A program made the translations under genes and the position numbers. Under the pieces are notes generated by a model, which had not been told where the DNA came from, made no database searches, and worked only from the letters and a program-made list of their open reading frames with translations. Of a DNA stretch of 64,000 bases, positions 2,221 through 31,502 are shown piece by piece. The DNA is from Thermoplasmata archaeon (GTDB lineage Archaea; Thermoplasmatota; Thermoplasmata; Lutacidiplasmatales; UBA184), in contig JASHPK010000017.1 in assembly GCA_030038095.1 (NCBI GenBank), positions 8,689 to 72,688 of the forward strand. Direction: 5' to 3'. Position 1 is the stretch's first letter, and each line of letters starts with the position of its first letter.

Positions 2221-2229
2221 CGGACGGTC

Positions 2230-18282: not shown

Positions 18283-18616
18283 CGCTTCGGGGACCAAGCC
18301 GGCATCTCAAGGAGACTCCGCCCGACCCGGCCGACGGTCGGCTCGGGCAGGAACCCTCGGTTCTGTAACGTTGTCGCGGCCTCAGCTGCCGAGCCGCGTC
18401 AGATCGATCGTTCCAAAAGCTCCGGACTGTTACAGCACCGTTGAGTGCCGGGGCCCGGATACGGCGCAAATAGCTCGAATCCGATGCGAGCCGGACCCAG
18501 GTGGCCCGGGTATCGTCTGGCGCCGGGGCCCAGCGTTGTTCCCTATCAGTTGGATGGGGGCGTAACACGTGAAAAGGCGGGACTCCTATGGTCCTCTACC
18601 GTCCTCGGGAGGGTTC

Positions 18617-19606: not shown

Positions 19607-20007
19607 GCTCGGGCATTTCGTAGCGAGATTCGGACCGGTCACGGCGAAGAGTCGTCGGGCCAGGAACGGGGGTTGGCGACGAAGCCCCAGCAGTTTCGGC
19701 ACCCGGAGAGTCCGGTCATCGCTACGCACGCAGAAAGCTGCCGGGGCCAGGGATTCGCAAGAATGGTCGAAGCCTAGACGGACGGACTAGGCCTTAGGGC
19801 AGGGTCGTTACGTCTTGGAAGTTGGGCTACGCTGAGTGCCCGCCGGATGCAGCACGGAACGGACCTGCCAGACCCATTCGAGAATTGCAATCACAATCGC
19901 CCTAGGGGCTTCGTTGGGTGGGCGAACCCGGTTGCGGCCGCTCGCTTGGCGGCGCAGCCGAGGTAGCCGTTATTTTGGTATGTCGGCTTCACCCGGCAAG
20001 GTCACAC

Positions 20008-20769
20008 GTGAAAGGAGGCGGTTCGCCACACTCTCGGATCGCGAAGGGCGCGACGCGGCATCCGGTTGTAGGCCCTGCTCGCGACGAGTCTTCGCGAAAG
20101 ACCTCGGAGCTTTCCCTGGTCAGGGTGGATATCGCCGCCGGTTCGGCTCGCCACTGGATTCGCGACGTAACCGACCGATGGAAGCTCCGAGTCCGCTTTG
20201 ACGTCTGTCGATCGACCGGGCCCGATCTCTCTCGACTCCTGCAGGTGGTCGAACTGACCGGCGACCCAGGGGATCTCGGAGCGGCAGAACGGTACCTTCG
20301 GCAGCACCCGGGAATCGAGGCGCTTACTGTCATCGCCCTTTCCCCGTCGCGGCGGTTCGTCCGCGCCGTCACACGTATGCCGGAATCCTGTCGTCAGGTC
20401 ATCGAAGGCGGCGCGGTGTGCGCTCGGTGCCAGTTCGTTCCGGCTAAGGAGGCGGGGAGTGAGGACCGCTGGACACTTGTCGTGCCGAGGACCCCGGGGT
20501 CGCTCCGGGCGCTCGCCAAACTCCGCACCGCTCCGGAGCAGTCACGACCTCAGATCCTTCGCATGCGCCCGTTTGTTCCCGAGCAAACGCTCACTCCACG
20601 GCAGGCGACCGCTCTCGAAACAGCCTACCGCCTGGGGTTCTACGCTTTCCCCCGTCGGACGAATCTGATGGAGATCTCTCGCATTCTGGGAGTCAGTCGA
20701 GCCACCACAGCGGAACTCCTGCGACGAGCGGAGAGCAAGATCTTGGCGTCCCGGCTCGGCGAGCGTTGA
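20008..20769 (+). CDS. HTH_10 (bacterio-opsin-activator-type) transcriptional regulator
   Basis: C-terminal LTPRQATALETAYRLGFYAFPRRTNLMEISRILGVSRATTAELLRRAESKIL is the canonical Bat-type HTH. Start uncertain: GTG 20008 or GTG 20125; the track uses 19918. Confidence 0.65.
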   Translation: MKGGGSPHSRIAKGATRHPVVGPARDESSRKTSELSLVRVDIAAGSARHWIRDVTDRWKLRVRFDVCRSTGPDLSRLLQVVELTGDPGDLGAAERYLRQHPGIEALTVIALSPSRRFVRAVTRMPESCRQVIEGGAVCARCQFVPAKEAGSEDRWTLVVPRTPGSLRALAKLRTAPEQSRPQILRMRPFVPEQTLTPRQATALETAYRLGFYAFPRRTNLMEISRILGVSRATTAELLRRAESKILASRLGER

Positions 20770-20818
20770 ACTCGATCCCCCCGGCCTCCCGGCTCGAACT
20801 GGTAATGGTGCGCAGAAG

Positions 20819-21604
20819 TTAACGGCGCCTTGGGTTCTTCTTCTCACCGAACTTCGCCCGGGCCGCTCGGCTCTCCGCACTTCCTCGTAAGGGGTCCGCG
20901 AGGTCCTGCTCCAGCTGCAATGCGTCGGTGAGAGGAAGGTCCAGACCTCGACGCACCGCTTCGCGAGCTTGGCGGACCGCCCGGACCGGTAAGGCGGCGA
21001 TCCGCCTGGCGAGCAGTTGCGCTTCCGGTAGGAGACGGCGCTGAGCGACGACCCGATTGATGAGGCCGATCTCGTAGGCCCTCCGGGCGGAGATCGCCGC
21101 TCCGCTCAGGATCATCTCGAGCGCGAGATTCGGGGCGACGACCCGAGGTAGTCGTTGCGTTCCTCCTTGGCCCGGGATGATCCCCCACCGTACCTCCGGA
21201 AGACCGAAGGTCGCATTCGGGCTTGCGAGTCGGATATCGCTGGCAAGTGCCATTTCGAGTCCGAGTCCTAGACAGTAGCCGTTGATGGCCGCGATGATGG
21301 GCTTCCCGGGGTCGAAGTTGCGCGTCAGCCCTCCGATCCCGGGCTCTCGGGCCCAACGCTCGTGCCGCTCGCCGGGGTGGGACTCCGCATAGAAATCATC
21401 GAGACGGCCGAGGTCAATTCCCGCGCAGAATGCCTTTGTCCCGGCTCCGGTCAGAATCCCCACACGAAGCGCCGGGTCCCTCCGAAGACGGCTCCAGGCG
21501 TGAACGAGCTGGTCGTGCGATTCGGGGTCGATGGAGTTGAGGACTTTGGGTCGGTCGAGCGTCACGAGGAGCACGGGTCCCTGACGCTGGACGTGCAGAG
21601 GCAT
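20819..21604 (-). CDS. enoyl-CoA hydratase/isomerase (crotonase)
   Basis: 261 aa. LTGAGTKAFCAGIDL, AAINGYCLGLGLEMALASDIRLAS and GLPEVRWGIIPGQGGTQRL. Confidence 0.85.
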   Translation of the reverse strand: MPLHVQRQGPVLLVTLDRPKVLNSIDPESHDQLVHAWSRLRRDPALRVGILTGAGTKAFCAGIDLGRLDDFYAESHPGERHERWAREPGIGGLTRNFDPGKPIIAAINGYCLGLGLEMALASDIRLASPNATFGLPEVRWGIIPGQGGTQRLPRVVAPNLALEMILSGAAISARRAYEIGLINRVVAQRRLLPEAQLLARRIAALPVRAVRQAREAVRRGLDLPLTDALQLEQDLADPLRGSAESRAARAKFGEKKNPRRR

Positions 21605-21626
21605 GGCCCCCTCGACCTCGGCGATG

Positions 21627-21639
21627 TTAAGTGATTATC
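21627..21639 (-). promoter_or_regulatory. TATA-like box for the crotonase gene
   Basis: The minus strand reads GATAATCACTTAA, 23-35 nt upstream of ATG 21604, in an otherwise GC-rich divergent intergenic region. Confidence 0.3.
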
Positions 21640-21875
21640 CCCGAGAGAGGCGGCCGCCCGTGAGGAATGTTGGGGGAGTTCAGCATCGTCTCATCGAGAC
21701 CAAACCGGTAAGGGCGGGAAGTCCGTCGAGTACTCCCACGTCAGGGACTGGGGTCTTCGTATCACGCCGGAAGAGCCGCGAAGATCGGTCCCTGCGAGCT
21801 CGGGCGAACTTCGCGGTCGGGACGGATCGCCCCTCCCTTCCCTCGAGCCGGGACCGTCGTCCCCTTACCGGTTAG

Positions 21876-21883
21876 GTATAATC
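21876..21883 (+). promoter_or_regulatory. TATA-like box for the benzoyl-CoA operon
   Basis: GGTATAATC is about 15-20 nt upstream of GTG 21898 and about 30 nt upstream of the in-frame ATG 21913. Confidence 0.3.
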
Positions 21884-21897
21884 AGCATCCTCTCCGA

Positions 21898-23049
21898 GTG
21901 TCATGGCGTGGCATGCCCCCCCGAGCCGATCGGAGCCGTGCAGCAGTTGCCACAGATTCGAAGGAGACCCGTGCGGACCCGATCACTCCAGTTGACCCGG
22001 CTCGCGACGCGCTCCAAGGGGTCCTCTATGCGCGAACCGAGGGAGTTGCCCGCATTACGCTCAACCGACCCGAGTCGTACAATGCCTACGACACAGTCAC
22101 TCTGCGGGACCTTGCTCGCGCAGTCTGGAATGCCGCGGTCGATGACCGGGTTGGTGTGATCGTTCTCACCGGGAGTGGATCTCGAGCGTTCTGCACCGGC
22201 GGGGATGTGAAGGAATACGCCTCCCGCTTCGTGCGTCGCCCACAAGATTACTGGAAGTACATGGCGGTCTTCCGAGCGGCAGTCGAGTCGCTGCTTCGGT
22301 GTGGTAAACCGACGATCGCCCGACTGAACGGGATCGTGGTCGGGGGAGGGAACGAGCTGCACCTCGCCTGCGACCTTTCGGTCGCGGCCTCGCACATCTA
22401 TCTCGGACAGGTCGGCGTGGGAGTCGGCTCGGTGGCCAGCGGAGGGGCCACGCAGTGGCTACCGCTCGTCGTTGGGGATCGCCGGGCGCGCGCGATGCTC
22501 CTGATGAATGAGCGAGTCCCCGCGTCCCGGGCCGTCGAGTGGGGGCTCGTCACCACGATGGCCCCCTCGATCGCCCGGAATGGAGACTGGGTGACATCTC
22601 CGTCTCCGGAAGAAGTGAGCTGGGCGCAGAAAGGGGAGCGGGGGTACCGAATCGACCTCGAGAAACTGGACGACGCGGTCGATGCCCTGGCCGCGCGGCT
22701 TCTTGGGATGTTCCCCGAGTGTCTCCGGTACACCAAGGCTCAGACGAACTTCTGGAAAGAGCTCGCCTGGAACCAGACGGTGGGCCATGCTCAGGAGTGG
22801 CTCGCGCTGCACTTCGCTGCCGTGGAGCCGTTCGAAGGGATGCAAGCGTTCGTGGACAAGCGGCCTGCACGAGTGGCCGAGCTTCGGAAGAGAATCGCTC
22901 ATGGCGGCAGCGGCGACTACCTCCACGGTCCCCCGAGCCGGTCGTGCGGGCACTGTGGACAGACCGGACTTCCTGAGGAGTTCCGCTTCTGTGGTCGATG
23001 CGGTGCTCCCTTCGCCGGAGCGAGGGAACGGGATTCGGGCGTCGCCTAG
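21898..23049 (+). CDS. MenB/BadI/Oah-family crotonase, 6-oxocyclohex-1-ene-1-carbonyl-CoA hydrolase (Oah/BamA)-like, with C-terminal zinc ribbon
   Basis: 383 aa. ARITLNRPESYNAY, LTGSGSRAFCTGGDV, GGGNELHLACDLSVAA and GQVGVGVGSVASGGATQWL (MenB/BadI-type). There is a long insertion before FPECLRYTK, as I recall for Oah/BamA. C-terminal CGHCG-x12-CGRCG. The start may be ATG 21913. Confidence 0.7.
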   Translation: MSWRGMPPRADRSRAAVATDSKETRADPITPVDPARDALQGVLYARTEGVARITLNRPESYNAYDTVTLRDLARAVWNAAVDDRVGVIVLTGSGSRAFCTGGDVKEYASRFVRRPQDYWKYMAVFRAAVESLLRCGKPTIARLNGIVVGGGNELHLACDLSVAASHIYLGQVGVGVGSVASGGATQWLPLVVGDRRARAMLLMNERVPASRAVEWGLVTTMAPSIARNGDWVTSPSPEEVSWAQKGERGYRIDLEKLDDAVDALAARLLGMFPECLRYTKAQTNFWKELAWNQTVGHAQEWLALHFAAVEPFEGMQAFVDKRPARVAELRKRIAHGGSGDYLHGPPSRSCGHCGQTGLPEEFRFCGRCGAPFAGARERDSGVA

Positions 23050-23061
23050 GCAGAACGAACC

Positions 23062-24342
23062 ATGGAACCGACCGAGGGGACTGAGCCGAAATTCCTCGCG
23101 ACGGCCCGCGACGAGCAGCGCCGGATGGTCGACGAGTACTACACGAACCTCGCCACCGCGGGAGGACCGAAGAAGCCGGTCGCCTACATGTTCGTTGGTG
23201 GGAACCTGACCGAGATCGTCCGATCGTTCGGGTACGAGGTCGTGTTCCCCGAGATCGTCGGGCTCAATTGCGCCATCAAGCACGTGTCGCTCCCGAACAT
23301 CCTCCACGCAGAGTCACAGGGCTACGGTCTCGATGTCTGCGGCTACGTCAAGAACGACCTCGGGCTCCAAGAGCTCGGCGGCCAGACTCCATTCGGCCGA
23401 GTCCCTCCGCCGGATCTTCTCGTCTGTAGTTTCTCCGGCTGCTACATCTACGTGAAGTGGTGGGAGGCGCTGGCCGAGAAGTTCGGCTGTCCCCTCGTCG
23501 TGCTAGATGTCCCGTACATGCGAGCCAAAGAGCCCCAGGCAGAGGATCTCCAGTACCTGGTGGCCCAGCTGAACGAGTTCATCGCCCTGCTGGAGAAGAG
23601 GACGGGGCGATCGTTCGACCGGGCGGAGCTTCGGCGGGTACTCGAAAACTCCCGGCGCGCCGAACAAGGATGGGTGGACTATCTCGACTCCGGTCGCTTG
23701 CGACCGTCGCCCATCGAGGCGTACTTCGAGGCGGTCTTCTACATGTTTCCAATTAACGTGCTCCGCGGGACCGAGGAAGCCGCCGACTTCTATGCGACGG
23801 TCAATGCCGAGGTCGCCGAGAGGGTCCGGACTGGACGCTGTCCGGTGCCCGAAGAAAAGTTCCGTCTCGTCGTGGAAGGGGTCCCCCCTTACACCAATTA
23901 CCGGACCTTCTGGGATTTCTTCCGCCGGTGGGGCGCGGTCTCGGTCGCCGCGACGTATCCCAAGGTCGGTGGACTGTTCGACCGCGGGTTCCTCCACGAC
24001 CCGGCCCGGCCGCTCGAGAGTATCGCGGAGTACTCGCTCGGCGCTTACGTCAACCAGTCGTGGCCCCTGCGACGGAAGCTGATCGAGGAGTACGTTCGGG
24101 ATTTCGGCGCCGATGCCGTGCTCATCCACGGGATCAAGTCCTGTCGGTCGTTCACGGCGGGTCAGGGAGACCTCCGGGACTGGCTCATCCACGACCTCGG
24201 GATTCCGACGCTCTACATCGAGTCGGACCACGAGGACCCTCGGTACTTCGCTCCAGCGCAAATCAAGAACCGCATGGACGCCTTCTTCGAGTCGCTCGAC
24301 CAGCGTCGCGGGTCGACCCCGCTTCCGATGGTGAGGTCATGA
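23062..24342 (+). CDS. benzoyl-CoA reductase / 2-hydroxyacyl-CoA dehydratase family, large subunit (BcrB/BadE/BzdO-like)
   Basis: 426 aa. HgdB/BcrB-family features: VAYMFVGGNLTEIV, DVCGYVKND, LVCSFSGCYIYVKWWE, HGIKSCRSF. Confidence 0.8.
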   Translation: MEPTEGTEPKFLATARDEQRRMVDEYYTNLATAGGPKKPVAYMFVGGNLTEIVRSFGYEVVFPEIVGLNCAIKHVSLPNILHAESQGYGLDVCGYVKNDLGLQELGGQTPFGRVPPPDLLVCSFSGCYIYVKWWEALAEKFGCPLVVLDVPYMRAKEPQAEDLQYLVAQLNEFIALLEKRTGRSFDRAELRRVLENSRRAEQGWVDYLDSGRLRPSPIEAYFEAVFYMFPINVLRGTEEAADFYATVNAEVAERVRTGRCPVPEEKFRLVVEGVPPYTNYRTFWDFFRRWGAVSVAATYPKVGGLFDRGFLHDPARPLESIAEYSLGAYVNQSWPLRRKLIEEYVRDFGADAVLIHGIKSCRSFTAGQGDLRDWLIHDLGIPTLYIESDHEDPRYFAPAQIKNRMDAFFESLDQRRGSTPLPMVRS

Positions 24343-25127
24343 CGCTGGTCGCCGGAGTGGACATCGGCTCCACGACCGCGAAATGCGTGCTGATCGAGAA
24401 TGGGAAGATCCTCGGAAAGTCCCTCGCTCCCGTCGGGGTGGAGCTCGTCAAGGACGCCGAACGGTCGCTCGAACAGGCCCTCGCCGAAACCGGACGGGGG
24501 CGGGGCGAAGTGGCGGTGGTGACCGGCACCGGTTATGGTCGGTTCAAGGTCACGTTCGGTCAGTACACCGTGACCGAGATCGGTTGCCACGCGAAAGGGG
24601 CGCACTTCCTGTTTCCTGCTACGCGGGTCGTTCTCGACATCGGCGGGCAAGACACGAAGGCCATCAAGATCAACGAGAAGGGGGAGGTCGTCGACTTCGC
24701 GATGAACGACAAGTGCGCGGCGGGGACCGGACGGTTCCTAGACGTTTGCGCGGGAGCGCTCGGGCTCGATGTCAGCGAGATCGGATCCCTCTCGCTCGGG
24801 GCCCGACATCCGGTCAAGGTCACAAACACCTGCACCGTGTTTGCCGAGTCCGAGGTCTCCTCCTACGTCTCGCGGGGCAAAGAGGCGAAGGACATCCTCG
24901 CGGGCCTCAACGCGAGTGTCGTGAGCCGATCGCTCTCGCTGATGCAGCGTGTGGGGATCGAACCGGAAGTGACGTTCACGGGAGGAGTCTCTCGCAACGA
25001 GGGTGTCGTCCGGACCCTTGGCTACCGCCTGAAGCTTCCCGTGAATGTCAGTCCGCTCTCGCAGTACGTCGGGGCGATCGGAGCGGCGCTTCACGGCCTC
25101 GAGCGCAAGGAGGCCACCGCGACATGA
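24339..25127 (+). CDS. BcrAD/BadFG-type ATPase subunit (electron-activating module), copy 1
   Basis: ATG 24339 overlaps the upstream stop (ATGA). GVDIGSTTAKCV, LDIGGQDTKAI, MNDKCAAGTGRFLD, CTVFAESEV, FTGGVSRN. Confidence 0.8.
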   Translation: MTLVAGVDIGSTTAKCVLIENGKILGKSLAPVGVELVKDAERSLEQALAETGRGRGEVAVVTGTGYGRFKVTFGQYTVTEIGCHAKGAHFLFPATRVVLDIGGQDTKAIKINEKGEVVDFAMNDKCAAGTGRFLDVCAGALGLDVSEIGSLSLGARHPVKVTNTCTVFAESEVSSYVSRGKEAKDILAGLNASVVSRSLSLMQRVGIEPEVTFTGGVSRNEGVVRTLGYRLKLPVNVSPLSQYVGAIGAALHGLERKEATAT

Positions 25128-25936
25128 TTACCTGCGGACTCGACCTCGGATCCGGGACGACCAAGGGTGTCCTTCTCGAAGATGGCCAACGGATCCTCGC
25201 GAGCGCCTTCGCGCCGACCCGGGGGGCCCCGGTCGAGAGGGGTCGCCAGATCCTGGAACTCATGGCCGAGGAGGCGAACATCCTCCCCGGCGACGTCGAG
25301 TACCTCTGTACGACGGGGGCGGCGCGGTACGCTTTCCTCGACCGCAACCTGCAGGTGAGTGACATCACCGCCTCGGGCCGTGGGGCGGTCTTCCTGGCCC
25401 CGGGGACGCGGCACGTGGTGGACATCGGAAGCCAATCCTCGCGTGCGATGTCGGTGTCGGAGACTGGTCGGGTGATCCGGTTCAAGATGAACGAGAAGTG
25501 CGCCGCGGGTGCGGGGAGGTTCGTCGATCGCTGCGCGAAGTACCTCCAAGTACCGCTCGAGGAGATGGCCCCGAAGGCGCTCGCCTCGGCCCAGCCGAAG
25601 ATCATTTCGAGCGTTTGCGCGGTCCTCGCGGAGACTGAAATCATCAACAACGTCGCGGAGGAGGTGCCCCTCCCCGACATCCTGATGGGCGTTTTCCTCT
25701 CGCTTGCGCAACGGGCCTACATTCTGATGCGATACGTCGGGATCCAGCCCGAGGTCGCACTCGTCGGGGGTCTCGTGAAGAGCGAGGCCATGGTTCGAGC
25801 GCTCGAACGCACCGGGAAGATCTCGATTTCCGCCCACCCGATGGGGCAGCACGCGGCGGCGATCGGAGCGGCCATGCTCGGCTACAGTCGAGTCCAGAAG
25901 CTCTCCTCCAGGCCGGGCCGTTTGCCGGCGGCGTAG
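25124..25936 (+). CDS. BcrAD/BadFG-type ATPase subunit, copy 2
   Basis: ATG 25124 overlaps the upstream stop (ATGA). GLDLGSGTTKGV, VDIGSQSSRAM, MNEKCAAGAGRFVD, CAVLAETEI, LVGGLVKSE. Confidence 0.8.
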   Translation: MITCGLDLGSGTTKGVLLEDGQRILASAFAPTRGAPVERGRQILELMAEEANILPGDVEYLCTTGAARYAFLDRNLQVSDITASGRGAVFLAPGTRHVVDIGSQSSRAMSVSETGRVIRFKMNEKCAAGAGRFVDRCAKYLQVPLEEMAPKALASAQPKIISSVCAVLAETEIINNVAEEVPLPDILMGVFLSLAQRAYILMRYVGIQPEVALVGGLVKSEAMVRALERTGKISISAHPMGQHAAAIGAAMLGYSRVQKLSSRPGRLPAA

Positions 25937-27184
25937 GTGAGAAACGTGGGCTTCCAAACCCCGGCCGGAGCCGAGTTCGAGGCGCTCGATGCAGCTCCCC
26001 CGTTGGAGCTGACCGACTCGCTCGAGGAGTTTGCTAAAGCATCGTCGATAGCGGAAATCACCCAGCTCGCACGGGAGGTCGTTCTGGACCCGACCTATCC
26101 CACGGTTCGGGCCTGGACACGGTCCGGCCGTAGGGCCGTGGGATGTTTCCCCGTATACACCCCTCAAGAGCTCGTACATTCCATGGGACTTTTCCCCGTG
26201 TCGCTCCACGGGGGTGGGGAGAGCGTCGAGATCAGCCATGCAGACGCGGCGCTCGGCTCGTTCCTCTGCTCTATCAGCAAATCGACGCTCGAGCTCGCGC
26301 TCACGTCCCGGCTCGCCCCGTTTCGAGCGTTCGTCTTTCCGTACGTTTGCGACGTCAGCCGGAATGTGGAGGGAATCTTTTCCCGGGTCCTCCCAGGGGC
26401 AGAGACCTACATGCTCCACCTGCCCCAGAACTTCCACTCCGCGGCGACCGTCCCCTTCCTGACCGCCGAGTATCGTCGGCTCATCGCGCGACTCGAGAAG
26501 GCAGGGGGAGAGCCGTACGACCCCGAGCGATTGGCCGCCTCGATCGAGCTGTTCAATCAACAGCGGGCGGCGATCGCCGACCTCACGGCGACGAAGCGGA
26601 ACGAACCGGGGAAGCTTACGTTGACCGAATCGTACTTGGTGCGACGGCTTGGAGGACTGCTCCCCCGCGAGATTCATATCCCGCTCCTCCACCGAGTTCG
26701 CTCGGAACTGGCTCAGCGGCCCAACCGCACTAAGGATGCCATCCGGACCCTTCTGGTCGGGCCGTTCTGCGAGCAGCCCACACTCGACCTCATCGACCTC
26801 ATGGAGCAGGTCGGTTGCTACATCGTGGATGACGAGCTATTGCAGATTCACCGATGGTACGACCGCGTCGACCCTGGGGGGGACCCGCTCACGAACCTGG
26901 CCAGCGCGTACGTCCAGAGCCCCGTGGATATCGGGGTCCGCGCCGCTCCGACGACGAAGGGCGAGGCCATCCTCCGACGTGTCGGCGCCGCGGAGGCTCA
27001 AGGAGTGATCTTCCTGACCGCCAAATTCTGCGAACCCGCGCTCGAGGACGTCGTCCTCTACCGAAAGGCCCTCGAACGCGAGAAGATCCCGTACCTGCAT
27101 TTGGAGTTCGAGGAACGCTCCACCTCCTACGAGTCGGCCCGGCTTCAACTCGAGACGTTCGTGGAATCTATCCTCTTTGATTGA
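25937..27184 (+). CDS. benzoyl-CoA reductase / 2-hydroxyacyl-CoA dehydratase family, second large subunit (BcrC/BadD/BzdN-like)
   Basis: 415 aa. GTG 25937 directly abuts the upstream stop. VGCFPVYTPQELVHSMGLFP, FVFPYVCDVSRN, GVIFLTAKFCEP. Confidence 0.8.
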   Translation: MRNVGFQTPAGAEFEALDAAPPLELTDSLEEFAKASSIAEITQLAREVVLDPTYPTVRAWTRSGRRAVGCFPVYTPQELVHSMGLFPVSLHGGGESVEISHADAALGSFLCSISKSTLELALTSRLAPFRAFVFPYVCDVSRNVEGIFSRVLPGAETYMLHLPQNFHSAATVPFLTAEYRRLIARLEKAGGEPYDPERLAASIELFNQQRAAIADLTATKRNEPGKLTLTESYLVRRLGGLLPREIHIPLLHRVRSELAQRPNRTKDAIRTLLVGPFCEQPTLDLIDLMEQVGCYIVDDELLQIHRWYDRVDPGGDPLTNLASAYVQSPVDIGVRAAPTTKGEAILRRVGAAEAQGVIFLTAKFCEPALEDVVLYRKALEREKIPYLHLEFEERSTSYESARLQLETFVESILFD

Positions 27185-27192
27185 AGTGAGCG

Positions 27193-27966
27193 ATGTCGCG
27201 CGGGACTGGGTCGGTGCGAGTGGGCCGCACGGGGACACGGGCTACCATCGTCTGGGACCGACCTCCCCTGAACGTCTTTGACCTCGCGCTAATCGAGGAC
27301 CTCTCCGAAGTCCTCCGGTCCGAGCCGGTCCAGACCGCGCACGTGGTGGTGGCGAAGGGCGCCCGTCACCGCTGGAGCGCGGGCTTGGCCGTGGAGGACC
27401 ATCTCTCGAGCCGGGTTCGTCCCATGCTTCGCGCGTTTGGGGAACTCCTTCGCGCTCTTTGGGAAGTACCGGGTCCGGTCCTCGCGGAGGTGGAAGGGCC
27501 GTGTCTCGGCGGCGGCCTCGAACTATTGGGCGCTTGCGATCTGGCCATTGCGGGGGCCTCGGCCACGTTCGCACAACCCGAGGTGCGGCTCGGAGTCTTC
27601 CCCCCGTTCGCGGCCGTGGTGAACGGCCGGAGCTTGGGGCCGAAGCGGACGGCCGAGCTGCTCTTTCTCGGCGATACGATCGGCGCGGCGCAGGCGGAAG
27701 CGTTCGGCCTGGTCACGCGAACGGTGGCGGACGACACGATCGAGGACCTGGTGAACCGCACGACCGACCAGCTCGGTGGGTTCCGGCGGGAAACGCTCGT
27801 ATACCTCAAGAAGGTCCTTCACGAGAGCGAAGGTCCGCCGTGGGTCCTCCTCGAGCGCGCCGAGAGGACCTACCTCGAAGAGCTGATGACGCTGCCGGAC
27901 GCCGAAGAGGGGCTCCGGGCCTTCCTCGAGAAGAGGGCTCCGGTCTGGCCGGTACGAGGTCGGTAG
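27193..27966 (+). CDS. crotonase, cyclohexa-1,5-diene-1-carbonyl-CoA hydratase (Dch)-like
   Basis: 257 aa. DRPPLNVFDL, KGARHRWSAGLAVEDH, EGPCLGGGLELLGACDLAIA and FAQPEVRLGVFPP. The Dch assignment rests on operon context plus my memory of the Dch-type SAGVDVxxH motif. Confidence 0.65.
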   Translation: MSRGTGSVRVGRTGTRATIVWDRPPLNVFDLALIEDLSEVLRSEPVQTAHVVVAKGARHRWSAGLAVEDHLSSRVRPMLRAFGELLRALWEVPGPVLAEVEGPCLGGGLELLGACDLAIAGASATFAQPEVRLGVFPPFAAVVNGRSLGPKRTAELLFLGDTIGAAQAEAFGLVTRTVADDTIEDLVNRTTDQLGGFRRETLVYLKKVLHESEGPPWVLLERAERTYLEELMTLPDAEEGLRAFLEKRAPVWPVRGR

Positions 27967-27974
27967 GCGTCCCT

Positions 27975-28997
27975 ATGCGCGCGGCGGTCCTTCGCGTCCC
28001 TGGACAACCTCTCCGCGTCGAGGAGGTCCCGACGCCGATCCCGGGGCCCGGGGAGGCTCGAGTCGCCGTCATCGCCTGCGGATTCTGCCATACCGACCTC
28101 CACTACCTGGACCATGGAGTGGCGACCGCCAAGCCCCCGCCGATCATCTTGGGCCACGAGATCTCCGGAACGGTCGAGAGTTTGGGCCCGGGAGCGGAGG
28201 GGGTCGCGGTCGGTGACCGGGTCCTCGTACCCGCGGTCCTCCCGTGCGGTCACTGCGAGTACTGCCGAACCGGTCGAGAGAACATTTGCCCGAAGATGCG
28301 GATGCTTGGGAACCATCTCGACGGGGGATTCGCGGAGAACGTAGTCGTGCCCGCGAAGGACCTCGTCCCGCTGCCCAGCGAGATCGACCCGATCGCCGGA
28401 TGCATCATCTCCGATGCGCTCACCACTCCCTATCACGCGGTCGTGCACCGGGCCCGGGTTCAGGCGGGAGAACGGGTCGCCGTGGTCGGATGCGGGGGCG
28501 TCGGAATCAACGTGGTCCAGTTCGCGGCCGGGGCCGGTGCTCGCGTCGTCGCGATCGACCTCAACGATGCGAAGCTTGAGGTGGCTCGCCGACTCGGAGC
28601 CGAGCAGGCGATCAACCCGGGCCGGTCGGAGGATGTGGGCAAGGAGGTCCGCCGTCTCCTCGGGGACGCGGTGGACGTGGCGATCGAGGCGGTCGGAAGT
28701 CCGACCACGATCGCGCTCTCCTTCGGCACGCTGCGCCGGGGCGGGCGGCTCTGCCTCGTCGGCTACAGCAGCGCTCCGGCGACGCTTCCCGCTCCGAAGG
28801 TGATGTTCCTCGAGTACTCCATCGTGGGGTCGCTCGGGTGCCGGCCCGGGGACTATCCCCGCGTCGTCGAGATGGTGCGCCGAGCTCGAATCCAACTCGA
28901 CCCGGTGGTCACGGCGAGGGTCCACCTCGAGGAGATCGGGACCGCCGCCGATCTCCTTCGAAAGGGCGAAGGATTTCGCTCCGTCGTCCTGCCGTAA
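27975..28997 (+). CDS. Zn-dependent alcohol-dehydrogenase-family enzyme, 6-hydroxycyclohex-1-ene-1-carbonyl-CoA dehydrogenase (Had)-like
   Basis: ATG 27975 inside ORF 27459..28997. CGFCHTDLH, GHEISGTV, structural-zinc CGHCEYCRTGRENIC, Rossmann VVGCGGVG. Had of the benzoyl-CoA pathway belongs to this family. Confidence 0.7.
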   Translation: MRAAVLRVPGQPLRVEEVPTPIPGPGEARVAVIACGFCHTDLHYLDHGVATAKPPPIILGHEISGTVESLGPGAEGVAVGDRVLVPAVLPCGHCEYCRTGRENICPKMRMLGNHLDGGFAENVVVPAKDLVPLPSEIDPIAGCIISDALTTPYHAVVHRARVQAGERVAVVGCGGVGINVVQFAAGAGARVVAIDLNDAKLEVARRLGAEQAINPGRSEDVGKEVRRLLGDAVDVAIEAVGSPTTIALSFGTLRRGGRLCLVGYSSAPATLPAPKVMFLEYSIVGSLGCRPGDYPRVVEMVRRARIQLDPVVTARVHLEEIGTAADLLRKGEGFRSVVLP

Positions 28998-29106
28998 GTC
29001 GTCCAAGCCCGGGCCACCGGAGCCGTGGCTCGACCCGTCGGTCGAGATTCGGTACGTGCTCGGACGAACCGTGTACGACCCGGACACCGATGGACCCCTC
29101 ACCGGT

Positions 29107-30525
29107 ATGGAAGAACGCTTATCCCGTGAGCCCGTGCTACGCTGTCTCATGCCCGACCCGTCCCCGAGGGCCGAGGAACCACTCGTAGAGAATTATCAGA
29201 ACGAGACTGTCGCCCTCCGGAGATTCGCCGACCCGATCGTGTTCTGGGACGAGACTCTGCGCGATGGCGAACAGATGCCGGGGGTCCACTACACCCCCGC
29301 CGAGAAGCTGCAGATCGCGGAGATGCTTTCGGACCTTGGGGTGTCGGTGATCGATGCCGGGATCCCGGTCGTTTCCGCGGAGGAAGCCGAGTCGGTCCGA
29401 CGCGTAGCCGAAGCGGGTCTGAAGGCCGAGATTCTCGCCTCCGCACGGACCGTCCCCAGCGACATCGATGCGGTCATTAAGTCCGGCGCCCGACAGATCG
29501 CGGTCTTCGTCGCTGCGAGTAATGTCCATCTGCGCCACAAGCTGCGGATGACGCAGGCGGAGGTGATGGATGCCTCCGTCCGGAGCGTGAGGCAGGCGAA
29601 GTCCGCAGGACTGTTCGTCGCCTTCGTGACCGAGGACACGACGCGGGCGCCGTTGGATTTCGTGACCGAACTCTACCGAAGAGTCCGGGAGGAAGGGGCG
29701 GACCGCCTCGTGATCGCGGACACGGTCGGTGCCACGACACCGATGACGTTCCGGTGGTTCCTTGAGGAGTTTCGGCGACGCGTGGAGCCGGCGGACTGGT
29801 CCGTGCATTGTCACAACGATTTCGGGCTCGCCGTCGCCAACACCCTTACCGCCCTCGAGACGGGGGTAAACTGCCCCCACGTTTGCGTCAACGGACTGGG
29901 GGAGCGGGCCGGTAACGCCTCACTCGAGGAGACGGCCATGGCCCTCGAACTTCTGTATGGTGTCAAGACCGGACTGCGCACCGAGTCTCTCTACGGACTC
30001 TCGAAGCTCGTCGAGGGGCTTTCGGGCGTACCGATTCAGGCCAACAAAGCCATCGTGGGATACAATTCGTTCTCCCATGAGGCGGGCATTCACACGCACG
30101 GCGTCCTCGCCCACACCCTTACCTACGAGCCGCTGCAACCTGAGCTCGTCGGACGACGCCGACAGATGATCCTCGGAAAGCACTCCGGGAAAGCTGCCCT
30201 GGTGGAGAAGCTCAAGGAGCGCCGGGTCGAGGTCCCGGAGCACATCCTGAACGTCCTCCTCCAACTGGTAAAGAAGGGGGGAGAGGGCCAGAGCAAGGAA
30301 GATGCCCGTCTCTTCGTCGAGGAGTACCGACGCCGGTTCGACCATCCTGGTGTCCAGGACGCCGAGTTCTGGCAGATGGTACGGGACGCGGGGGTGGTGG
30401 GGGATGAGGAGGAAGTGGAGGCCACGGCCCACGACGTCCAGCCGAGAGGGTCCTCGCCCGGCTGGCCGGAGCCGAATAGTTCTCTCCCGACGGAGTCGTG
30501 GAAGGGGTCGTCGCCCCCGGGGTGA
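29107..30525 (+). CDS. HMGL-like 2-isopropylmalate/homocitrate/citramalate synthase family enzyme
   Basis: FWDETLRDGEQMPGV, HCHNDFGLAVANTL, GLGERAGNASLEE, SHEAGIHTHG. Start is ATG 29107 or 29149. The acidic/Pro-rich C-terminal tail is atypical. Confidence 0.75.
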   Translation: MEERLSREPVLRCLMPDPSPRAEEPLVENYQNETVALRRFADPIVFWDETLRDGEQMPGVHYTPAEKLQIAEMLSDLGVSVIDAGIPVVSAEEAESVRRVAEAGLKAEILASARTVPSDIDAVIKSGARQIAVFVAASNVHLRHKLRMTQAEVMDASVRSVRQAKSAGLFVAFVTEDTTRAPLDFVTELYRRVREEGADRLVIADTVGATTPMTFRWFLEEFRRRVEPADWSVHCHNDFGLAVANTLTALETGVNCPHVCVNGLGERAGNASLEETAMALELLYGVKTGLRTESLYGLSKLVEGLSGVPIQANKAIVGYNSFSHEAGIHTHGVLAHTLTYEPLQPELVGRRRQMILGKHSGKAALVEKLKERRVEVPEHILNVLLQLVKKGGEGQSKEDARLFVEEYRRRFDHPGVQDAEFWQMVRDAGVVGDEEEVEATAHDVQPRGSSPGWPEPNSSLPTESWKGSSPPG

Positions 30526-30701
30526 CGAGATAGCGGGCGCCCCCCGCTGCCGCACCGTTCGCGAACACTCATCGTCCGACTACCCTCGGTGTAACCGGAG
30601 GGCGGAGAAGACCTCCCACCGGTGAACAGGGGCGAACGGTCAGCCCGGGTACAAGCTCCCTCCTAGACGCCCAACTACCGCGCGGGCGTCGAGTAGCTCG
30701 A

Positions 30702-31158: not shown

Positions 31159-31394
31159 CACCCCACGCGAGTCACAATCTAGGCGAGCACCCAAGGCAGT
31201 TCTGATGTCAACGCGAGTGAACAAGGCAGAGGCGCCATCCGGAGCCCGCAAGGTGGGTGTGAATCACCCGGCCTTATACTCAGTTGCCCGGAGCAATCCC
31301 CCTTGAGGGACGGGCGAAACTCACCGATTTGCCGCCCGAGTTCCGGTCCATCGTCCAATCGCCCTTACCGAGGTAGATCGTAACGGCGAACGGA

Positions 31395-31477
31395 TGCCGG
31401 GGCCAGGATTCGAACCTGGGAACTCCTGCGAGAGCAGATCTTGAGTCTGCCGCCTTTGGCCGCTCGGCCACCCCGGC
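31395..31477 (-). tRNA. tRNA-Leu(CAA), intron-less, no encoded CCA
   Basis: The minus strand folds as GCCGGGG TG GCC GAGCGGCCAAA GGC G GCAGA CTCAAGA TCTGC TCTCGCAGGAGTTC CCAGG TTCGAAT CCTGG CCCCGGC A. Confidence 0.9.
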
Positions 31478-31502
31478 TCGCGGTCCGGCAGGAGTCCGCT
31501 CC

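What the first reader, a model, noticed from the sequence alone, without database searches (positions are those of the whole stretch)
20008..28997. Seven-gene operon for ATP-dependent benzoyl-CoA dearomatisation and ring opening on an archaeal contig
Seen in sequence: seven co-directional genes run from 21898 to 28997 with gaps of 0-12 nt or ATGA overlaps. They encode an Oah/BamA-like hydrolase, two HgdB/BcrB/BcrC-family large subunits, two different BcrAD/BadFG-type ATPases (262 and 270 aa, each with the MN(D/E)KCAAG Cys motif), a Dch-like crotonase and a Zn-ADH-family Had-like dehydrogenase. A Bat-type HTH regulator and a further crotonase sit directly upstream. Established knowledge: two distinct ATPase subunits plus two large subunits define class I benzoyl-CoA reductases (Bcr/Bad/Bzd), and Dch, Had and Oah are the three following steps of the Thauera/Azoarcus-type pathway. 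Inference: together this is a full upper benzoyl-CoA pathway. The two short ATPases resemble the Bzd (Azoarcus) type rather than Thauera BcrA, as far as I remember subunit sizes. To my knowledge Ferroglobus placidus is the only archaeon in which this pathway has been studied experimentally, so a second, unrelated high-GC archaeal host would be notable. No ferredoxin, ferredoxin-regenerating enzyme or dedicated benzoate-CoA ligase lies inside the operon.
Basis: partly seen in the sequence, partly recalled or inferred. Interest (0 to 1): 0.7.

Follow-up and report, generated by a model that had tools for sequence, protein, structure and literature searches.

The report
Archaeal benzoyl-CoA ring-reduction gene cassette
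A soil- or sediment-type Thermoplasmata archaeon carries a compact, self-regulated gene cassette that most likely lets it break the benzene ring of benzoyl-CoA without oxygen; the genes are real and well conserved, but similar clusters have already been predicted in uncultured archaea and none has been tested biochemically.

Summary
Seven tightly packed + strand genes (21898-28997) encode a MenB/Oah-like hydrolase, the four subunits of a class I aryl-CoA reductase in the order beta-alpha-delta-gamma, a crotonase hydratase and a Zn-ADH. An HTH_10 regulator and a divergent crotonase lie upstream.

The contig is archaeal: TBP, Cdc6, the archaeal CCA enzyme and GluRS flank the operon.

Subunit beta is 41-46% identical to proteins that pass NCBI's BcrB equivalog cutoff and groups with them (NJ bootstrap 73%). 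The MBR-type reductases are the next group out (96%), and HadB dehydratase and BzdO lie outside.

All seven proteins score below the curated equivalog cutoffs.

The same nine-gene cassette occurs in at least 19 Thermoplasmata species genomes. Relatives with Dch-, Had- and Oah-like neighbours occur in Heimdallarchaeia and many uncultured bacterial phyla.

Published MAG studies already report bcr genes in Thermoplasmatota and Asgard archaea.

New details: the B-A-D-C gene order, a zinc ribbon on the Oah-like enzyme, a cassette-specific regulator with four invariant cysteines, and a conserved palindrome at the promoter.

Verdict: a new member of a known kind, of modest interest.

The parts
20119..20769 (+). 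HTH_10 (Bat-type C-terminal helix-turn-helix) regulator, 216 aa. The alternative annotated start 20008 gives 253 aa. [quoted passage not shown] Proposed cassette-specific regulator.
   Evidence: Pfam HTH_10, E 8e-18, at residues 159-210. Only 67 homologues (>=41% identity) among 5.8 billion proteins. Adjacent to the cassette in 16 of 21 related loci. C30, C91, C101 and C104 are invariant in 36 sequences. The AlphaFold model has pLDDT 81.6 and no significant PDB fold match.
20819..21604 (-). Divergently transcribed canonical crotonase (enoyl-CoA hydratase, EchA19-like, 261 aa). A conserved member of the cassette, with a possible extra hydration step or lower-pathway role.
   Evidence: ECH_1 E 1e-53. 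NCBIfam EchA19 220 bits, below its cutoff of 400. Present next to the operon in most Thermoplasmata loci.
21700..21713 (.). Distal copy of the near-palindrome CCTWACCGGTNAGG in the divergent intergenic region.
   Evidence: Conserved in L002, L004, L005 and L006 in alignment A2.
21863..21876 (.). Promoter-proximal palindrome CCTTACCGGTTAGG, followed by TATAAT, 22 nt upstream of the first operon codon. Candidate operator overlapping the BRE/TATA position.
   Evidence: Exact match: 9 matches at <=2 mismatches against 1.98 expected, reached by 0 of 100 shuffles. The core WACCGGTNAGG lies just upstream of the Oah-like gene in 12 Thermoplasmata loci and almost nowhere else in the 83 loci fetched up to then. 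It forms the invariant columns of alignment A2.
21898..23049 (+). MenB/BadI/Oah-subfamily crotonase (383 aa) with a C-terminal CxxC-x11-CxxC zinc ribbon. Proposed ring-opening hydrolase (Oah analogue).
   Evidence: TIGR03200 (Oah) 197 bits (cutoff 464), against MenB 139 and BadI 134. The nearest PDB entries are MenB. It has the GQxGxxVGS motif that lacks the second catalytic Glu (alignment). The Oah profile match ends at position 348 of 360, before the ribbon. The tail hits Pfam DZR at E 2e-5. The ribbon is conserved in Gemmatimonadota, Acidobacteria and Heimdall homologues.
23062..24342 (+). Beta (BcrB-type) subunit, 426 aa. Carries the substrate site and the catalytic [4Fe-4S] cluster.
   Evidence: HGD-D E 4e-59. 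TIGR02260 342 bits, against HadB 161, BzdO 108 and DCCP 67. PDB: MbdO 228 bits, HadB 131, BzdO 104. C93, C127, C361 and E64 align with BzdO C95, C128, C380 and E65. Groups with canonical BcrB equivalogs.
24339..25127 (+). Alpha-type ATPase subunit (262 aa, short form).
   Evidence: BcrAD_BadFG E 4e-64. Best PDB match MbdQ (alpha) at 273 bits, against HadI 228 and MbdP 164. MNDKCAAG motif, Cys126 and Cys165.
25124..25936 (+). Delta-type ATPase subunit (270 aa).
   Evidence: BcrAD_BadFG E 5e-48. NCBIfam BcrD 149 bits is the best reductase-subunit model. Best PDB match MbdP (delta) at 177 bits, against HadI 171 and MbdQ 161. MNEKCAAG motif, Cys126 and Cys165.
25937..27184 (+). Gamma (BcrC-type) subunit, 415 aa. 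Electron-relay FeS subunit.
   Evidence: HGD-D E 3e-65. TIGR02263 249 bits, against HadC 174 and BzdN 70. PDB: MbdN 262 bits, HadC 152, BzdN 71. Cys111, 138, 278, 294 and 365 are conserved in 73-76 of 76 relatives and in MbdN. Cys278 and Cys294 are absent from HadC and BzdN.
27193..27966 (+). Canonical crotonase hydratase (257 aa). Proposed dienoyl-CoA hydratase (Dch analogue).
   Evidence: ECH_1 E 2e-34. TIGR03189 (Dch) is the best hit at 119 bits, below its cutoff of 292 and only just ahead of generic hydratases at 113. Syntenic between gamma and Had-like in 12 of 15 complete BADC loci.
27975..28997 (+). Zn-dependent medium-chain dehydrogenase (340 aa). [quoted passage not shown]
   Evidence: ADH_N and ADH_zinc_N. 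TIGR03201 (Had) is the best hit at 249 bits (cutoff 339), with the next family at 199. The solved Had 7qul scores 168 bits, against 183 for generic ADHs. Adjacent to the reductase genes in 15 of 15 complete BADC loci and 13 of 28 CBAD loci.

Best explanation
The segment is a self-contained catabolic cassette of a Thermoplasmata archaeon. It most likely encodes an ATP-dependent class I aryl-carboxyl-CoA reductase of the BCR (Thauera/Rhodopseudomonas) lineage, acting on benzoyl-CoA or a very close analogue. It also encodes the three enzymes that take the reduced ring to an open-chain dicarboxyl-CoA.

Proposed mechanism (inferred from homology; nothing here has been assayed):
1. The alpha and delta ATPases form a heterodimer that holds a bridging [4Fe-4S] cluster through Cys126 and Cys165 of each subunit.
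2. A ferredoxin encoded elsewhere reduces this cluster. ATP hydrolysis drives the electron to very low potential.
3. The electron passes through the cysteine-rich gamma subunit to the [4Fe-4S] cluster of beta (Cys93, Cys127, Cys361; fourth ligand water; Glu64 as proton relay).
4. There the aromatic ring is reduced, Birch-like, to cyclohexa-1,5-diene-1-carbonyl-CoA.
5. The 257-aa crotonase hydrates the diene.
6. The Zn-ADH oxidises the 6-hydroxyl.
7. The MenB/Oah-like crotonase with the zinc ribbon adds water and cleaves the ring to 3-hydroxypimeloyl-CoA.
8. The divergent crotonase probably serves a neighbouring hydration step.

The HTH_10 protein probably controls both divergent promoters through the CCTWACCGGTNAGG palindromes, one of which overlaps the expected TATA/BRE position of the operon promoter.
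For: Shown by the sequence and the searches:
- Gene set and tight coupling.
- Every protein's best NCBIfam model is the corresponding benzoyl-CoA-pathway equivalog.
- The nearest solved structures for all four reductase subunits are the subunits of 3-methylbenzoyl-CoA reductase, with the correct alpha/delta reciprocity.
- Beta is 41-46% identical to P0245 and P0246, which score 630 and 815 bits on TIGR02260 (cutoff 486). P0246 lies in a C-B-A(446 aa)-D cluster.
- In the NJ tree, the window, its relatives and the canonical BcrB equivalogs group at 73%. That group plus the MBR type stands against HadB and BzdO at 96%.
- The catalytic Cys3+Glu constellation and both ATPase cysteines are conserved.
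- The gamma cysteines 278 and 294 are shared with MbdN but absent from the HadC dehydratase.
- A MenB-type hydrolase, a hydratase and, unusually for beta-oxidation, an MDR Zn-dehydrogenase are linked to the reductase genes. This holds in Thermoplasmata, Heimdallarchaeia, Acidobacteriota, Planctomycetota, Gemmatimonadota, Bacteroidota and Chloroflexota. This is the enzyme-family composition of the Thauera Dch-Had-Oah route.
- Published MAG studies reach the same prediction for other Thermoplasmatota and for Asgard archaea (PMC9239135, PMC8163825).
Against: - All seven proteins are below NCBIfam's curated equivalog cutoffs: 342/486, 249/421, 149/313, 190/578, 197/464, 119/292 and 249/339.
- The Dch-like protein is barely distinguishable from generic hydratases.
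- The Had-like protein is no closer to solved Had than to ordinary ADHs.
- An Acidobacteria homologue of the Oah-like protein scores equally on Oah, MenB and BadI.
- No benzoate-CoA ligase, ferredoxin, ferredoxin-regenerating enzyme or lower-pathway genes (glutaryl-CoA dehydrogenase and others) lie in the 64-kb window.
- Branching inside the BCR-type clade is unresolved (24-53% support). The tree is NJ only and lacks named Thauera or Rhodopseudomonas sequences.
- Substrate specificity cannot be read from sequence.
- No member of this subclade has been assayed.
Confidence: 0.7

Rival explanations
1. The same kind of enzyme (an ATP-dependent class I aryl-CoA reductase with a ring-opening module), but with a physiological substrate other than plain benzoyl-CoA. 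Candidates are methyl-, hydroxy-, amino- or halo-benzoyl-CoA from lignin or humic breakdown. Alternatively the ring is reduced by four electrons to the monoene, as proposed for Rhodopseudomonas palustris, and the accessory enzymes act on the corresponding analogues.
For: - The clade falls below the BcrB and BcrC equivalog cutoffs and forms its own subclade with Heimdallarchaeia (100% support).
- The related MBR enzymes show that this family accommodates substituted rings (the 9g87 naming).
- The Oah-like enzyme differs from canonical Oah in its zinc ribbon. An Acidobacteria homologue scores as well on BadI as on Oah.
- A third crotonase is part of the cassette.
Against: - The dehydrogenase is an MDR Zn-ADH as in the Thauera route, not an SDR like BadH.
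- No tool here can read substrate specificity.
- Benzoyl-CoA is the common hub and the default substrate of all characterised relatives (established knowledge).
Confidence: 0.2
2. A 2-hydroxyacyl-CoA dehydratase with its ATP-dependent activator, used for amino-acid fermentation (the HgdAB/HgdC, HadBC/HadI, FldBC or LcdAB type).
For: Pfam places the large subunits in HGD-D and the ATPases in BcrAD_BadFG, families shared with the dehydratases. NCBI names many homologues '2-hydroxyacyl-CoA dehydratase family protein'. The Cys3+Glu site is common to both enzyme types.
Against: - Two different ATPase genes map reciprocally to MbdQ and MbdP, rather than one homodimeric activator.
- Beta and gamma score about twice as high on the BcrB/BcrC models and on MbdO/N as on HadB/HadC.
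- The tree puts HadB outside the BCR+MBR clade at 96%.
- The gamma Cys278 and Cys294 signature is absent from HadC.
- There is no CoA-transferase or 2-hydroxyacid dehydrogenase nearby. Instead there are two hydratases, a MenB-type hydrolase and a Zn-ADH.
Confidence: 0.04
3. An assembly or binning artefact: a bacterial fragment joined to an archaeal contig, or a recently transferred and possibly non-functional island.
For: - The 15-32.5 kb stretch is compositionally distinct. GC is 0.62-0.68 against 0.69-0.73 elsewhere. Tetranucleotide correlation is 0.952-0.963 against 0.975-0.987. GC3 and codon scores are lower.
- The beta subunit does not group with that of other Thermoplasmatota (0% bootstrap), which points to lateral transfer at some stage.
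Against: - Archaeal housekeeping genes lie on both sides within one contig.
- The regulator is of an archaeal type (HTH_10).
- The same cassette sits among archaeal genes (TFIIB, ribosomal protein S2) in independent MAGs. The upstream TBP-to-CCA-enzyme synteny is shared with the window in L010, L018 and L022.
- All ORFs are intact, with conserved catalytic residues.
- The compositional deviation is mild (r > 0.95), and no att-like repeat flanks the region.
Confidence: 0.03

Closest known systems
Canonical class I benzoyl-CoA reductase, BCR type (Thauera aromatica BcrCBAD, Rhodopseudomonas palustris BadDEFG; NCBIfam TIGR02259-02263)
   Same: - Four subunits: two HGD-D large subunits and two different BcrAD_BadFG ATPases.
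- Beta is 41-46% identical to proteins that pass the BcrB equivalog cutoff and lies in the same NJ clade.
- The Cys3+Glu active-site constellation is conserved, with an aromatic residue (Tyr; Phe in the canonical proteins) at the position of BzdO His131.
   Different: - Below every curated equivalog cutoff.
- Gene order B-A-D-C instead of C-B-A-D.
- The alpha subunit is short (262 aa), where the canonical cluster has about 446 aa.
- No linked ferredoxin.
- The host is an archaeon.
3-Methylbenzoyl-CoA reductase MbdONQP (MBR type), PDB 9g87/9gai
   Same: - Nearest solved structure for all four subunits: 228, 262, 273 and 177 bits.
- Short alpha subunit (MbdQ 269 aa).
- Gamma cysteines 111, 138, 278, 294 and 365 are shared.
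   Different: - Beta is only 33% identical.
- MbdO scores lower (222 bits) on the BcrB model than the window protein does (342).
- MBR forms a separate, 100%-supported clade.
- MbdN has His where the window gamma has Cys70.
BzdNOPQ (BZD/Azoarcus type), PDB 8s02 (PMC11971306); also the type used by Ferroglobus placidus, according to my recollection of the literature
   Same: The same superfamily and the same catalytic logic: a [4Fe-4S] cluster with three Cys ligands and water, plus Glu65, whose equivalents are conserved.
   Different: - Distant: beta is about 25% identical. BzdO and BzdN model scores are 108 and 70 bits.
- His131 is replaced by Tyr.
- The gamma cysteine pattern differs from the six-Cys [8Fe-9S] pattern of BzdN.
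Predicted bcr clusters of uncultured archaea: Ca. Yaplasmales (Thermoplasmatota; PMC9239135), Hermodarchaeota, Lokiarchaeota and Heimdallarchaeota (PMC8163825), Heimdallarchaeota LC_3 (L003)
   Same: The same inferred function. Heimdall beta subunits are the sister group of the window's clade (57-59% identical, 100% bootstrap). Dch-, Had- and Oah-like neighbours are present.
   Different: - These clusters have C-B-A-D order.
- The probable Ca. Yaplasmales locus (L025) is only about 54% identical and falls in another subclade, with bacteria.
- None has the HTH_10 regulator and palindrome arrangement.
2-Hydroxyacyl-CoA dehydratases with activator (HadBC/HadI 3o3m/4eht; HgdAB/HgdC 1hux)
   Same: The same Pfam families and the same ATP-driven electron-injection principle. 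The ATPase cysteines align with HgdC Cys127 and Cys166: there is a +1 offset, and the role of these residues is from memory.
   Different: - About half the bit score.
- Outside the reductase clade.
- A single activator gene, against two here.
- A different gene neighbourhood.
Dch, Had and Oah of Thauera aromatica (BamR/Q/A of Geobacter); BadK/H/I of R. palustris
   Same: The same three enzyme families in the same neighbourhood: a two-Glu crotonase, an MDR Zn-dehydrogenase and a MenB-like C-C hydrolase. The top NCBIfam hits are Dch, Had and Oah.
   Different: - Scores are far below the cutoffs.
- The Oah-like enzyme carries an extra C-terminal zinc ribbon that the canonical Oah profile does not cover.
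- The Had-like enzyme is no closer to solved Had (7qul) than to generic ADHs.

Membership tests
[quoted passage not shown] | Heterotetramer gene set: two distinct HGD-D large subunits (beta, gamma) and two distinct BcrAD_BadFG ATPases (alpha, delta) | tested here: met
   Reciprocal best matches: alpha to MbdQ (273 against 164 bits), delta to MbdP (177 against 161 bits).
[quoted passage not shown] | Two cysteines per ATPase subunit for the bridging [4Fe-4S] cluster | tested here: met
   Cys126 and Cys165 in both ATPases, within MN[DE]KCAAG and downstream of it. They align with HgdC at a +1 offset. The ligand role is from memory of the 1HUX literature.
[quoted passage not shown] | Beta subunit with a three-Cys [4Fe-4S] site and the catalytic Glu | tested here: met
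   C93, C127, C361 and E64 correspond to BzdO C95, C128, C380 and E65 (PMC11971306). They are invariant in all 50 aligned sequences. This feature is also present in the dehydratases, so it is necessary but not discriminating.
[quoted passage not shown] | Phylogenetic placement with validated reductases rather than with dehydratases | tested here: met
   NJ tree, 52 sequences, 416 columns, 200 bootstraps. BCR+MBR against HadB and BzdO: 96%. The window groups with the canonical BcrB equivalogs at 73%. NJ only; no named Thauera sequence was available.
[quoted passage not shown] | Score at or above the NCBIfam equivalog cutoffs (TIGR02260, 02263, 02259, 02261) | tested here: not met
   342/486, 249/421, 190/578 and 149/313. 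The experimentally validated MbdO also fails (222/486), so these cutoffs define only the narrow Thauera/Rhodopseudomonas group.
[quoted passage not shown] | ATP- and ferredoxin-dependent two-electron reduction of benzoyl-CoA to the 1,5-dienoyl-CoA | not testable with these tools
   Needs an enzyme assay.
[quoted passage not shown] | Linked low-potential ferredoxin and a regenerating system (fdx/KGOR or bzdM/bzdV) | tested here: not met
   No ferredoxin motif in any frame of the 64 kb. No OFOR among the Pfam hits. This is not strictly defining, because the genes may lie elsewhere in the genome.
BZD (Azoarcus)-type class I BCR | Closest similarity to BzdN/O/P/Q; His131 beside the catalytic cluster; the six-Cys [8Fe-9S] pattern in the gamma subunit | tested here: not met
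   BzdO 108 and BzdN 70 bits, against BcrB 342 and BcrC 249. Tyr130 replaces His131. The BzdN cysteine pattern is not shared.
2-Hydroxyacyl-CoA dehydratase plus activator | A single homodimeric activator; large subunits cluster with HgdAB, HadBC, FldBC or LcdAB; a CoA-transferase and 2-hydroxyacid dehydrogenase context | tested here: not met
   Two distinct ATPases. HadB lies outside the clade. No such neighbouring genes.
[quoted passage not shown] | A MenB-like crotonase core with the Oah-specific insertion; score at or above the equivalog cutoff | tested here: inconclusive
   Best hit is Oah at 197 bits, below the cutoff of 464. The matches cover profile positions 39-223 and 258-348. MenB-type motif present. 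Extra zinc ribbon. An Acidobacteria homologue scores equally on Oah, MenB and BadI.
[quoted passage not shown] | An MDR Zn-dehydrogenase that clusters with characterised Had | tested here: inconclusive
   Best NCBIfam hit is Had at 249 bits, below the cutoff of 339, with the next family at 199. Solved Had 7qul scores 168 bits, against 183 for generic ADH. Strong synteny with the reductase genes.
Cyclohexa-1,5-diene-1-carbonyl-CoA hydratase (Dch/BamR, TIGR03189) | A two-Glu crotonase that clusters with characterised Dch | tested here: inconclusive
   Best hit is Dch at 119 bits, below the cutoff of 292, with generic hydratases at 113. Both catalytic Glu motifs (GGGLEL, QPEVRLG) are visible in the sequence. 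The role of the motifs is from memory of rat ECH.

The most novel reading that the evidence does not exclude
The window represents an uncharacterised, archaeal sub-lineage of BCR-type aryl-CoA reductases, shared only by high-GC soil, peat and mine-drainage Thermoplasmata and by Heimdallarchaeia, and exchanged between these phyla. In Thermoplasmata it has been repackaged into a mobile nine-gene module with its own four-cysteine (possibly redox- or metal-sensing) HTH_10 regulator and a palindromic operator. Its ring-opening hydrolase carries a zinc ribbon. The module may act on a substrate other than plain benzoyl-CoA, such as lignin-derived substituted benzoates. If so, these abundant, possibly facultatively anaerobic soil archaea would have an unrecognised role in anoxic turnover of aromatic carbon.
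Probability: 0.2. Interest if true: 0.55.

Novelty: new member of a known kind. Interest (0 to 1): 0.3.

Why it matters
Anaerobic dearomatisation has been shown experimentally in only one archaeon, Ferroglobus placidus, which uses a different (Bzd-type) enzyme. Everything else in archaea is MAG-based prediction.

This cassette is compact: nine genes in 9 kb, with no missing subunit. It is conserved in at least 19 Thermoplasmata species from soils, peat and sediments. It lies closer to the canonical Thauera enzyme than the already validated MBR type does. That makes it a practical candidate for heterologous expression, to test whether uncultured archaea really reduce benzoyl-CoA.

It also documents a very large, uncharacterised radiation of BCR-type enzymes: more than 550 species genomes matched two motifs. 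Current curated models leave this radiation annotated as '2-hydroxyacyl-CoA dehydratase'.

The finding itself does not change what specialists already expect.

Tried and rejected
- Named reference sequences. A tblastn of MbdO against PLSDB plasmids found only three matches of about 24% identity. A homologue search with MbdO returned only unnamed metagenomic proteins. Canonical BcrB representatives were therefore identified indirectly: a search of the 50%-identity representatives followed by NCBIfam scoring.\n- Window contig in the gene-position index. Only a 3.5-kb Logan contig carried the exact beta protein, and GluRS was not on record. tRNA-Leu lies 2.4 kb downstream, but no att-like direct repeat of the tRNA region was found; the best match was 13 nt. 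I make no genomic-island claim beyond the compositional deviation.\n- Regulator sensor domain. Pfam finds nothing. The AlphaFold model (pLDDT 81.6) has no significant Foldseek match in the PDB (best E 6e-3, TM below 0.25). The idea that it resembles a known aromatic-binding domain could not be supported.\n- BzdO His131 as a diagnostic residue. It is Tyr or Phe in all BCR- and MBR-type sequences, including the canonical ones, so it says nothing special about this clade.\n- The AMP-forming ligase at 93-1799 as a benzoate-CoA ligase. Rejected: it scores best on long-chain fatty-acid-CoA ligase models (526 bits), and its 251 bits on the benzoate-CoA-ligase family is below that family's cutoff of 375.\n- The IPMS/homocitrate-synthase-like gene at 29056-30525 as part of the cassette. 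Rejected: it is not adjacent in any related Thermoplasmata locus.\n- Order-level taxonomy. An assignment such as Lutacidiplasmatales, which has about 65-69% GC and lives in acidic soil and peat (PMC9287336), is only a guess from GC content and the sources of related MAGs. It was not tested.

Full report
**Observation.** The ORF scan and junction check confirm seven co-directional genes on the + strand between 21898 and 28997. The junctions are a 12-nt gap, two ATGA overlaps (at 24339 and 25124), a 0-nt gap and two 8-nt gaps. Pfam assigns ECH_1, HGD-D, BcrAD_BadFG, BcrAD_BadFG, HGD-D, ECH_1 and ADH_N/ADH_zinc_N. Both ATPases carry MN[DE]KCAAG at residue 122, plus Cys126 and Cys165. Upstream lie an HTH_10 regulator (ends 20769; start 20008 in the public annotation or GTG 20119) and a divergently oriented crotonase (20819-21604). 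The actual order is Oah-like, beta, alpha, delta, gamma, Dch-like, Had-like.

**Host and surroundings.** The window encodes TBP (6270-6818), Cdc6/Orc1 (8376-9533), an archaeal class I CCA-adding enzyme (10841-12247) and an archaeal/eukaryotic-type GluRS (33233-34963). The operon is therefore physically linked to archaeal housekeeping genes on both sides. Exact-sequence look-up shows that the window comes from a 138,047-bp NCBI MAG contig. Its TBP falls in a 90% cluster named Thermoplasmata archaeon.

No ferredoxin motif occurs in any reading frame. No 2-oxoacid:ferredoxin oxidoreductase, glutaryl-CoA dehydrogenase or benzoate-CoA ligase was found. The one AMP-forming ligase (93-1799) looks like a long-chain fatty-acid-CoA ligase.

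The stretch from about 15 to 32.5 kb is mildly atypical in composition. GC is 0.62-0.68 against 0.69-0.73 elsewhere. Tetranucleotide correlation is 0.952-0.963 against 0.975-0.987. No att-like repeat was found next to the downstream tRNA-Leu.

**What the reductase is.** NCBIfam gives these scores:
- beta: BcrB 342 bits, HadB 161, BzdO 108
- gamma: BcrC 249, HadC 174, BzdN 70
- the 262-aa ATPase: BcrA 190, BzdQ 166, BcrD 146
- the 270-aa ATPase: BcrD 149, BzdQ 112

All are below the curated equivalog cutoffs. Against solved structures, every subunit is closest to the matching subunit of 3-methylbenzoyl-CoA reductase (9g87/9gai):
- MbdO 228 bits, against HadB 131 and BzdO 104
- MbdN 262, against HadC 152 and BzdN 71
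- MbdQ 273
- MbdP 177

No named Thauera or Rhodopseudomonas sequence could be retrieved. I therefore searched the 50%-identity representative library and scored candidates on TIGR02260. P0246 scores 815 bits and P0245 scores 630 bits, so both pass the BcrB cutoff. P0246 lies in a C-B-A(446 aa)-D cluster, the canonical architecture. The two are 41-46% identical to the window beta subunit. The validated MbdO is only 33% identical and itself scores just 222 bits on the BcrB model.

An NJ tree (52 sequences, 416 columns, 200 bootstraps) gives these groupings:
- The window, its relatives and the canonical BcrB equivalogs form one clade (73%).
- The MBR clade is sister to that clade (96% for BCR+MBR against the rest).
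- HadB and BzdO lie outside.

**Residue-level checks.** These use the BzdNO structure paper (PMC11971306). Beta C93, C127, C361 and E64 correspond to the cluster ligands C95, C128 and C380 and to the catalytic Glu65. They are invariant in all aligned sequences. BzdO His131 is Tyr here, and Phe or Tyr in all BCR- and MBR-type proteins, so it is uninformative.

In gamma, Cys111, 138, 278, 294 and 365 are conserved in 73-76 of 76 relatives and in MbdN. Cys278 and Cys294 are missing from HadC and BzdN. This cysteine signature links the protein to the tetrameric reductases.

**The accessory enzymes.** The 383-aa first gene is a MenB/BadI/Oah-subfamily crotonase: Oah 197 bits, MenB 139, BadI 134. 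Its nearest PDB entries are MenB. It has the GQxGxxVGS motif without the second catalytic Glu. It carries a C-terminal CxxC-x11-CxxC zinc ribbon, which hits Pfam DZR at E 2e-5. The canonical Oah profile does not cover this ribbon. The ribbon is conserved in homologues from Gemmatimonadota, Acidobacteriota and Heimdallarchaeota.

The 257-aa crotonase has both hydratase Glu motifs. It scores best on Dch, but only just (119 against 113 bits). The Zn-ADH scores best on Had (249 bits, with the next family at 199). In pairwise terms it is no closer to solved Had (7qul, 168 bits) than to generic ADHs (183 bits).

By sequence alone these three assignments are inconclusive. The argument for them is the neighbourhood.

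**Distribution and synteny.** The beta subunit has about 88 90%-clusters at 70-92% identity, all in Thermoplasmata MAGs where a name is given. It has 55-60% relatives in Heimdallarchaeota, Hodarchaeales, Kariarchaeaceae and Thorarchaeota. A motif scan of one genome per species found more than 554 genomes with relatives.

A local phmmer map of the 80 best loci plus two others shows the following:
- The Oah-B-A-D-C-Dch-Had order, with the divergent crotonase and an HTH_10 gene, occurs in 19 Thermoplasmata loci (70-87% identity) and in two bacterial loci.
- Every other locus has the canonical C-B-A-D order. These include a probable Ca. Yaplasmales MAG (L025), Methanomassiliicoccales-labelled MAGs, Heimdallarchaeota and many bacterial phyla.
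- Oah- and Had-like genes lie within 10 kb in 15 of 15 complete BADC loci and in 13 of 28 complete CBAD loci, across at least seven phyla.

An MDR Zn-dehydrogenase and a MenB-type hydrolase next to the reductase genes is the hallmark composition of the Thauera Dch-Had-Oah route. R. palustris uses an SDR instead. This recurrent linkage is the strongest evidence for function.

The window's beta clade is sister to the Heimdall clade (100%). It does not group with the other Thermoplasmatota (0%), which implies inter-phylum transfer. Flanking genes differ between close relatives, although L010, L018 and L022 share the upstream TBP-to-CCA-enzyme synteny with the window.

**Regulation (new here, inferred).** The regulator family is tiny: 67 homologues, all at least 41% identical. 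It therefore travels with the cassette. Its N-terminal domain has four invariant cysteines. Its predicted fold (pLDDT 81.6) has no significant match in the PDB.

The 293-bp divergent intergenic region holds two copies of the near-palindrome CCTWACCGGTNAGG, at 21700-21713 and 21863-21876. The second is followed by TATAAT and lies 22 nt before the first codon, at the expected archaeal BRE/TATA position. The motif is enriched in the window: 9 matches against 1.98 expected, reached by 0 of 100 shuffles. Its core sits just upstream of the first operon gene in 12 related Thermoplasmata loci and almost nowhere else. I propose that it is the operator of the HTH_10 protein. This is inference only.

**Comparison with the literature.** bcrABCD genes have been reported in Ca. 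[quoted passage not shown] They have also been reported in Thermoplasmata and Bathyarchaeota from seep sediments, and in Hermod-, Loki- and Heimdallarchaeota (PMC8163825). F. placidus remains the only archaeon with experimental evidence, and it is the noted exception of a strict anaerobe that uses a class I enzyme (PMC5736913).

The finding is therefore a further, well-preserved member of an already predicted kind. It has distinctive but modest variations: gene order, a short alpha subunit as in MBR, the zinc-ribbon hydrolase, and a dedicated regulator with its operator.

**Verdict.** The best explanation is an ATP-dependent BCR-type aryl-CoA reductase with a ring-opening module (confidence 0.7). 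The main rival is the same machinery with a different aromatic substrate or a different reduction depth (0.2). The dehydratase and artefact readings are unlikely. Novelty: a new member of a known kind. Interest: 0.3.

Noticed in passing
window 21700-21713, 21863-21876 (also 20981-20994; weak at 29097-29110); L002, L004, L006-L010, L012, L015, L020, L022, L064 just upstream of the Oah-like gene: A conserved near-palindrome, CCTWACCGGTNAGG, sits at the operon promoter and once more in the divergent intergenic region. It is enriched against shuffles and specific to the Thermoplasmata B-A-D-C cassette. It is a candidate operator for the adjacent HTH_10 regulator.
   Followed up: partly
window 20119-20769 (+): The HTH_10 regulator belongs to a very small family (67 homologues in 5.8 billion proteins). 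It has four invariant cysteines (C30, C91, C101, C104) in an N-terminal alpha/beta domain whose predicted fold matches nothing in the PDB. It may be a metal, FeS or redox sensor.
   Followed up: partly
window ~15000-32500: This segment is compositionally distinct: GC is 3-6 points lower, and tetranucleotide correlation is 0.95-0.96 against 0.975-0.987 elsewhere. It contains the cassette and ends near tRNA-Leu (31395-31477, minus strand). No att-like repeat was found.
   Followed up: partly
window 22942-23004 (C-terminus of the 21898-23049 product); homologues in L003, L028, L041: The Oah-like crotonase carries a C-terminal CxxC-x11-CxxC zinc ribbon. It is conserved from Thermoplasmata to Heimdallarchaeota, Acidobacteriota and Gemmatimonadota, and the canonical Oah profile does not cover it. 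Its role is unknown.
   Followed up: partly
L057, L058, L063, L066, L068, L070, L074 (Planctomycetota/Phycisphaerae) and L003:407-4920 (Heimdallarchaeota LC_3): An additional HGD-D family protein, a single BcrAD_BadFG activase and an AMP-forming CoA ligase lie immediately upstream of the C-B-A-D reductase genes. This looks like a second, paralogous ATP-dependent system coupled to substrate activation.
   Followed up: no
Genome-contig scan; L024-L083: BCR-type beta subunits 45-57% identical to the window's occur in more than 550 species-level genomes of mostly uncultured phyla, including Methylomirabilota/Rokubacteria, Planctomycetota, Acidobacteriota, Chloroflexota, Bacteroidota, Gemmatimonadota, Nitrospinota and Tectomicrobia. 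NCBI mostly names them '2-hydroxyacyl-CoA dehydratase'. This is probably systematic under-annotation caused by narrow equivalog cutoffs.
   Followed up: partly
window 15051-16712 (-) and 18569-19606 (+): A 553-aa ORF with good coding statistics but no Pfam hit. Also a 345-aa ORF with only a weak repeat match to the squalene-hopene-cyclase C-terminal domain. Both lie in the atypical-composition segment upstream of the cassette.
   Followed up: no
window 93-3384 (-): A fatty-acid-type AMP-forming CoA ligase, followed by a DUF35/OB-fold (ChsH2_C) protein and an SCP-x-type thiolase. This is the archaeal thiolase/DUF35 pairing, next to an acyl-CoA ligase.
   Followed up: no
window 40373-40445 (-): ARAGORN calls a tRNA-Gln (CTG) that the Rfam tRNA model did not report at its gathering threshold. 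The other two tRNAs (Leu-CAA at 31395-31477, Ala-CGC at 44665-44738) were found by both tools.
   Followed up: no
L001 (Logan SRR21679872, 3477 bp): An independent short assembly from a public sequencing run encodes a beta subunit identical to the window's, followed by alpha, delta and the start of gamma. The nature of that run (metagenome or metatranscriptome) could not be determined here.
   Followed up: no
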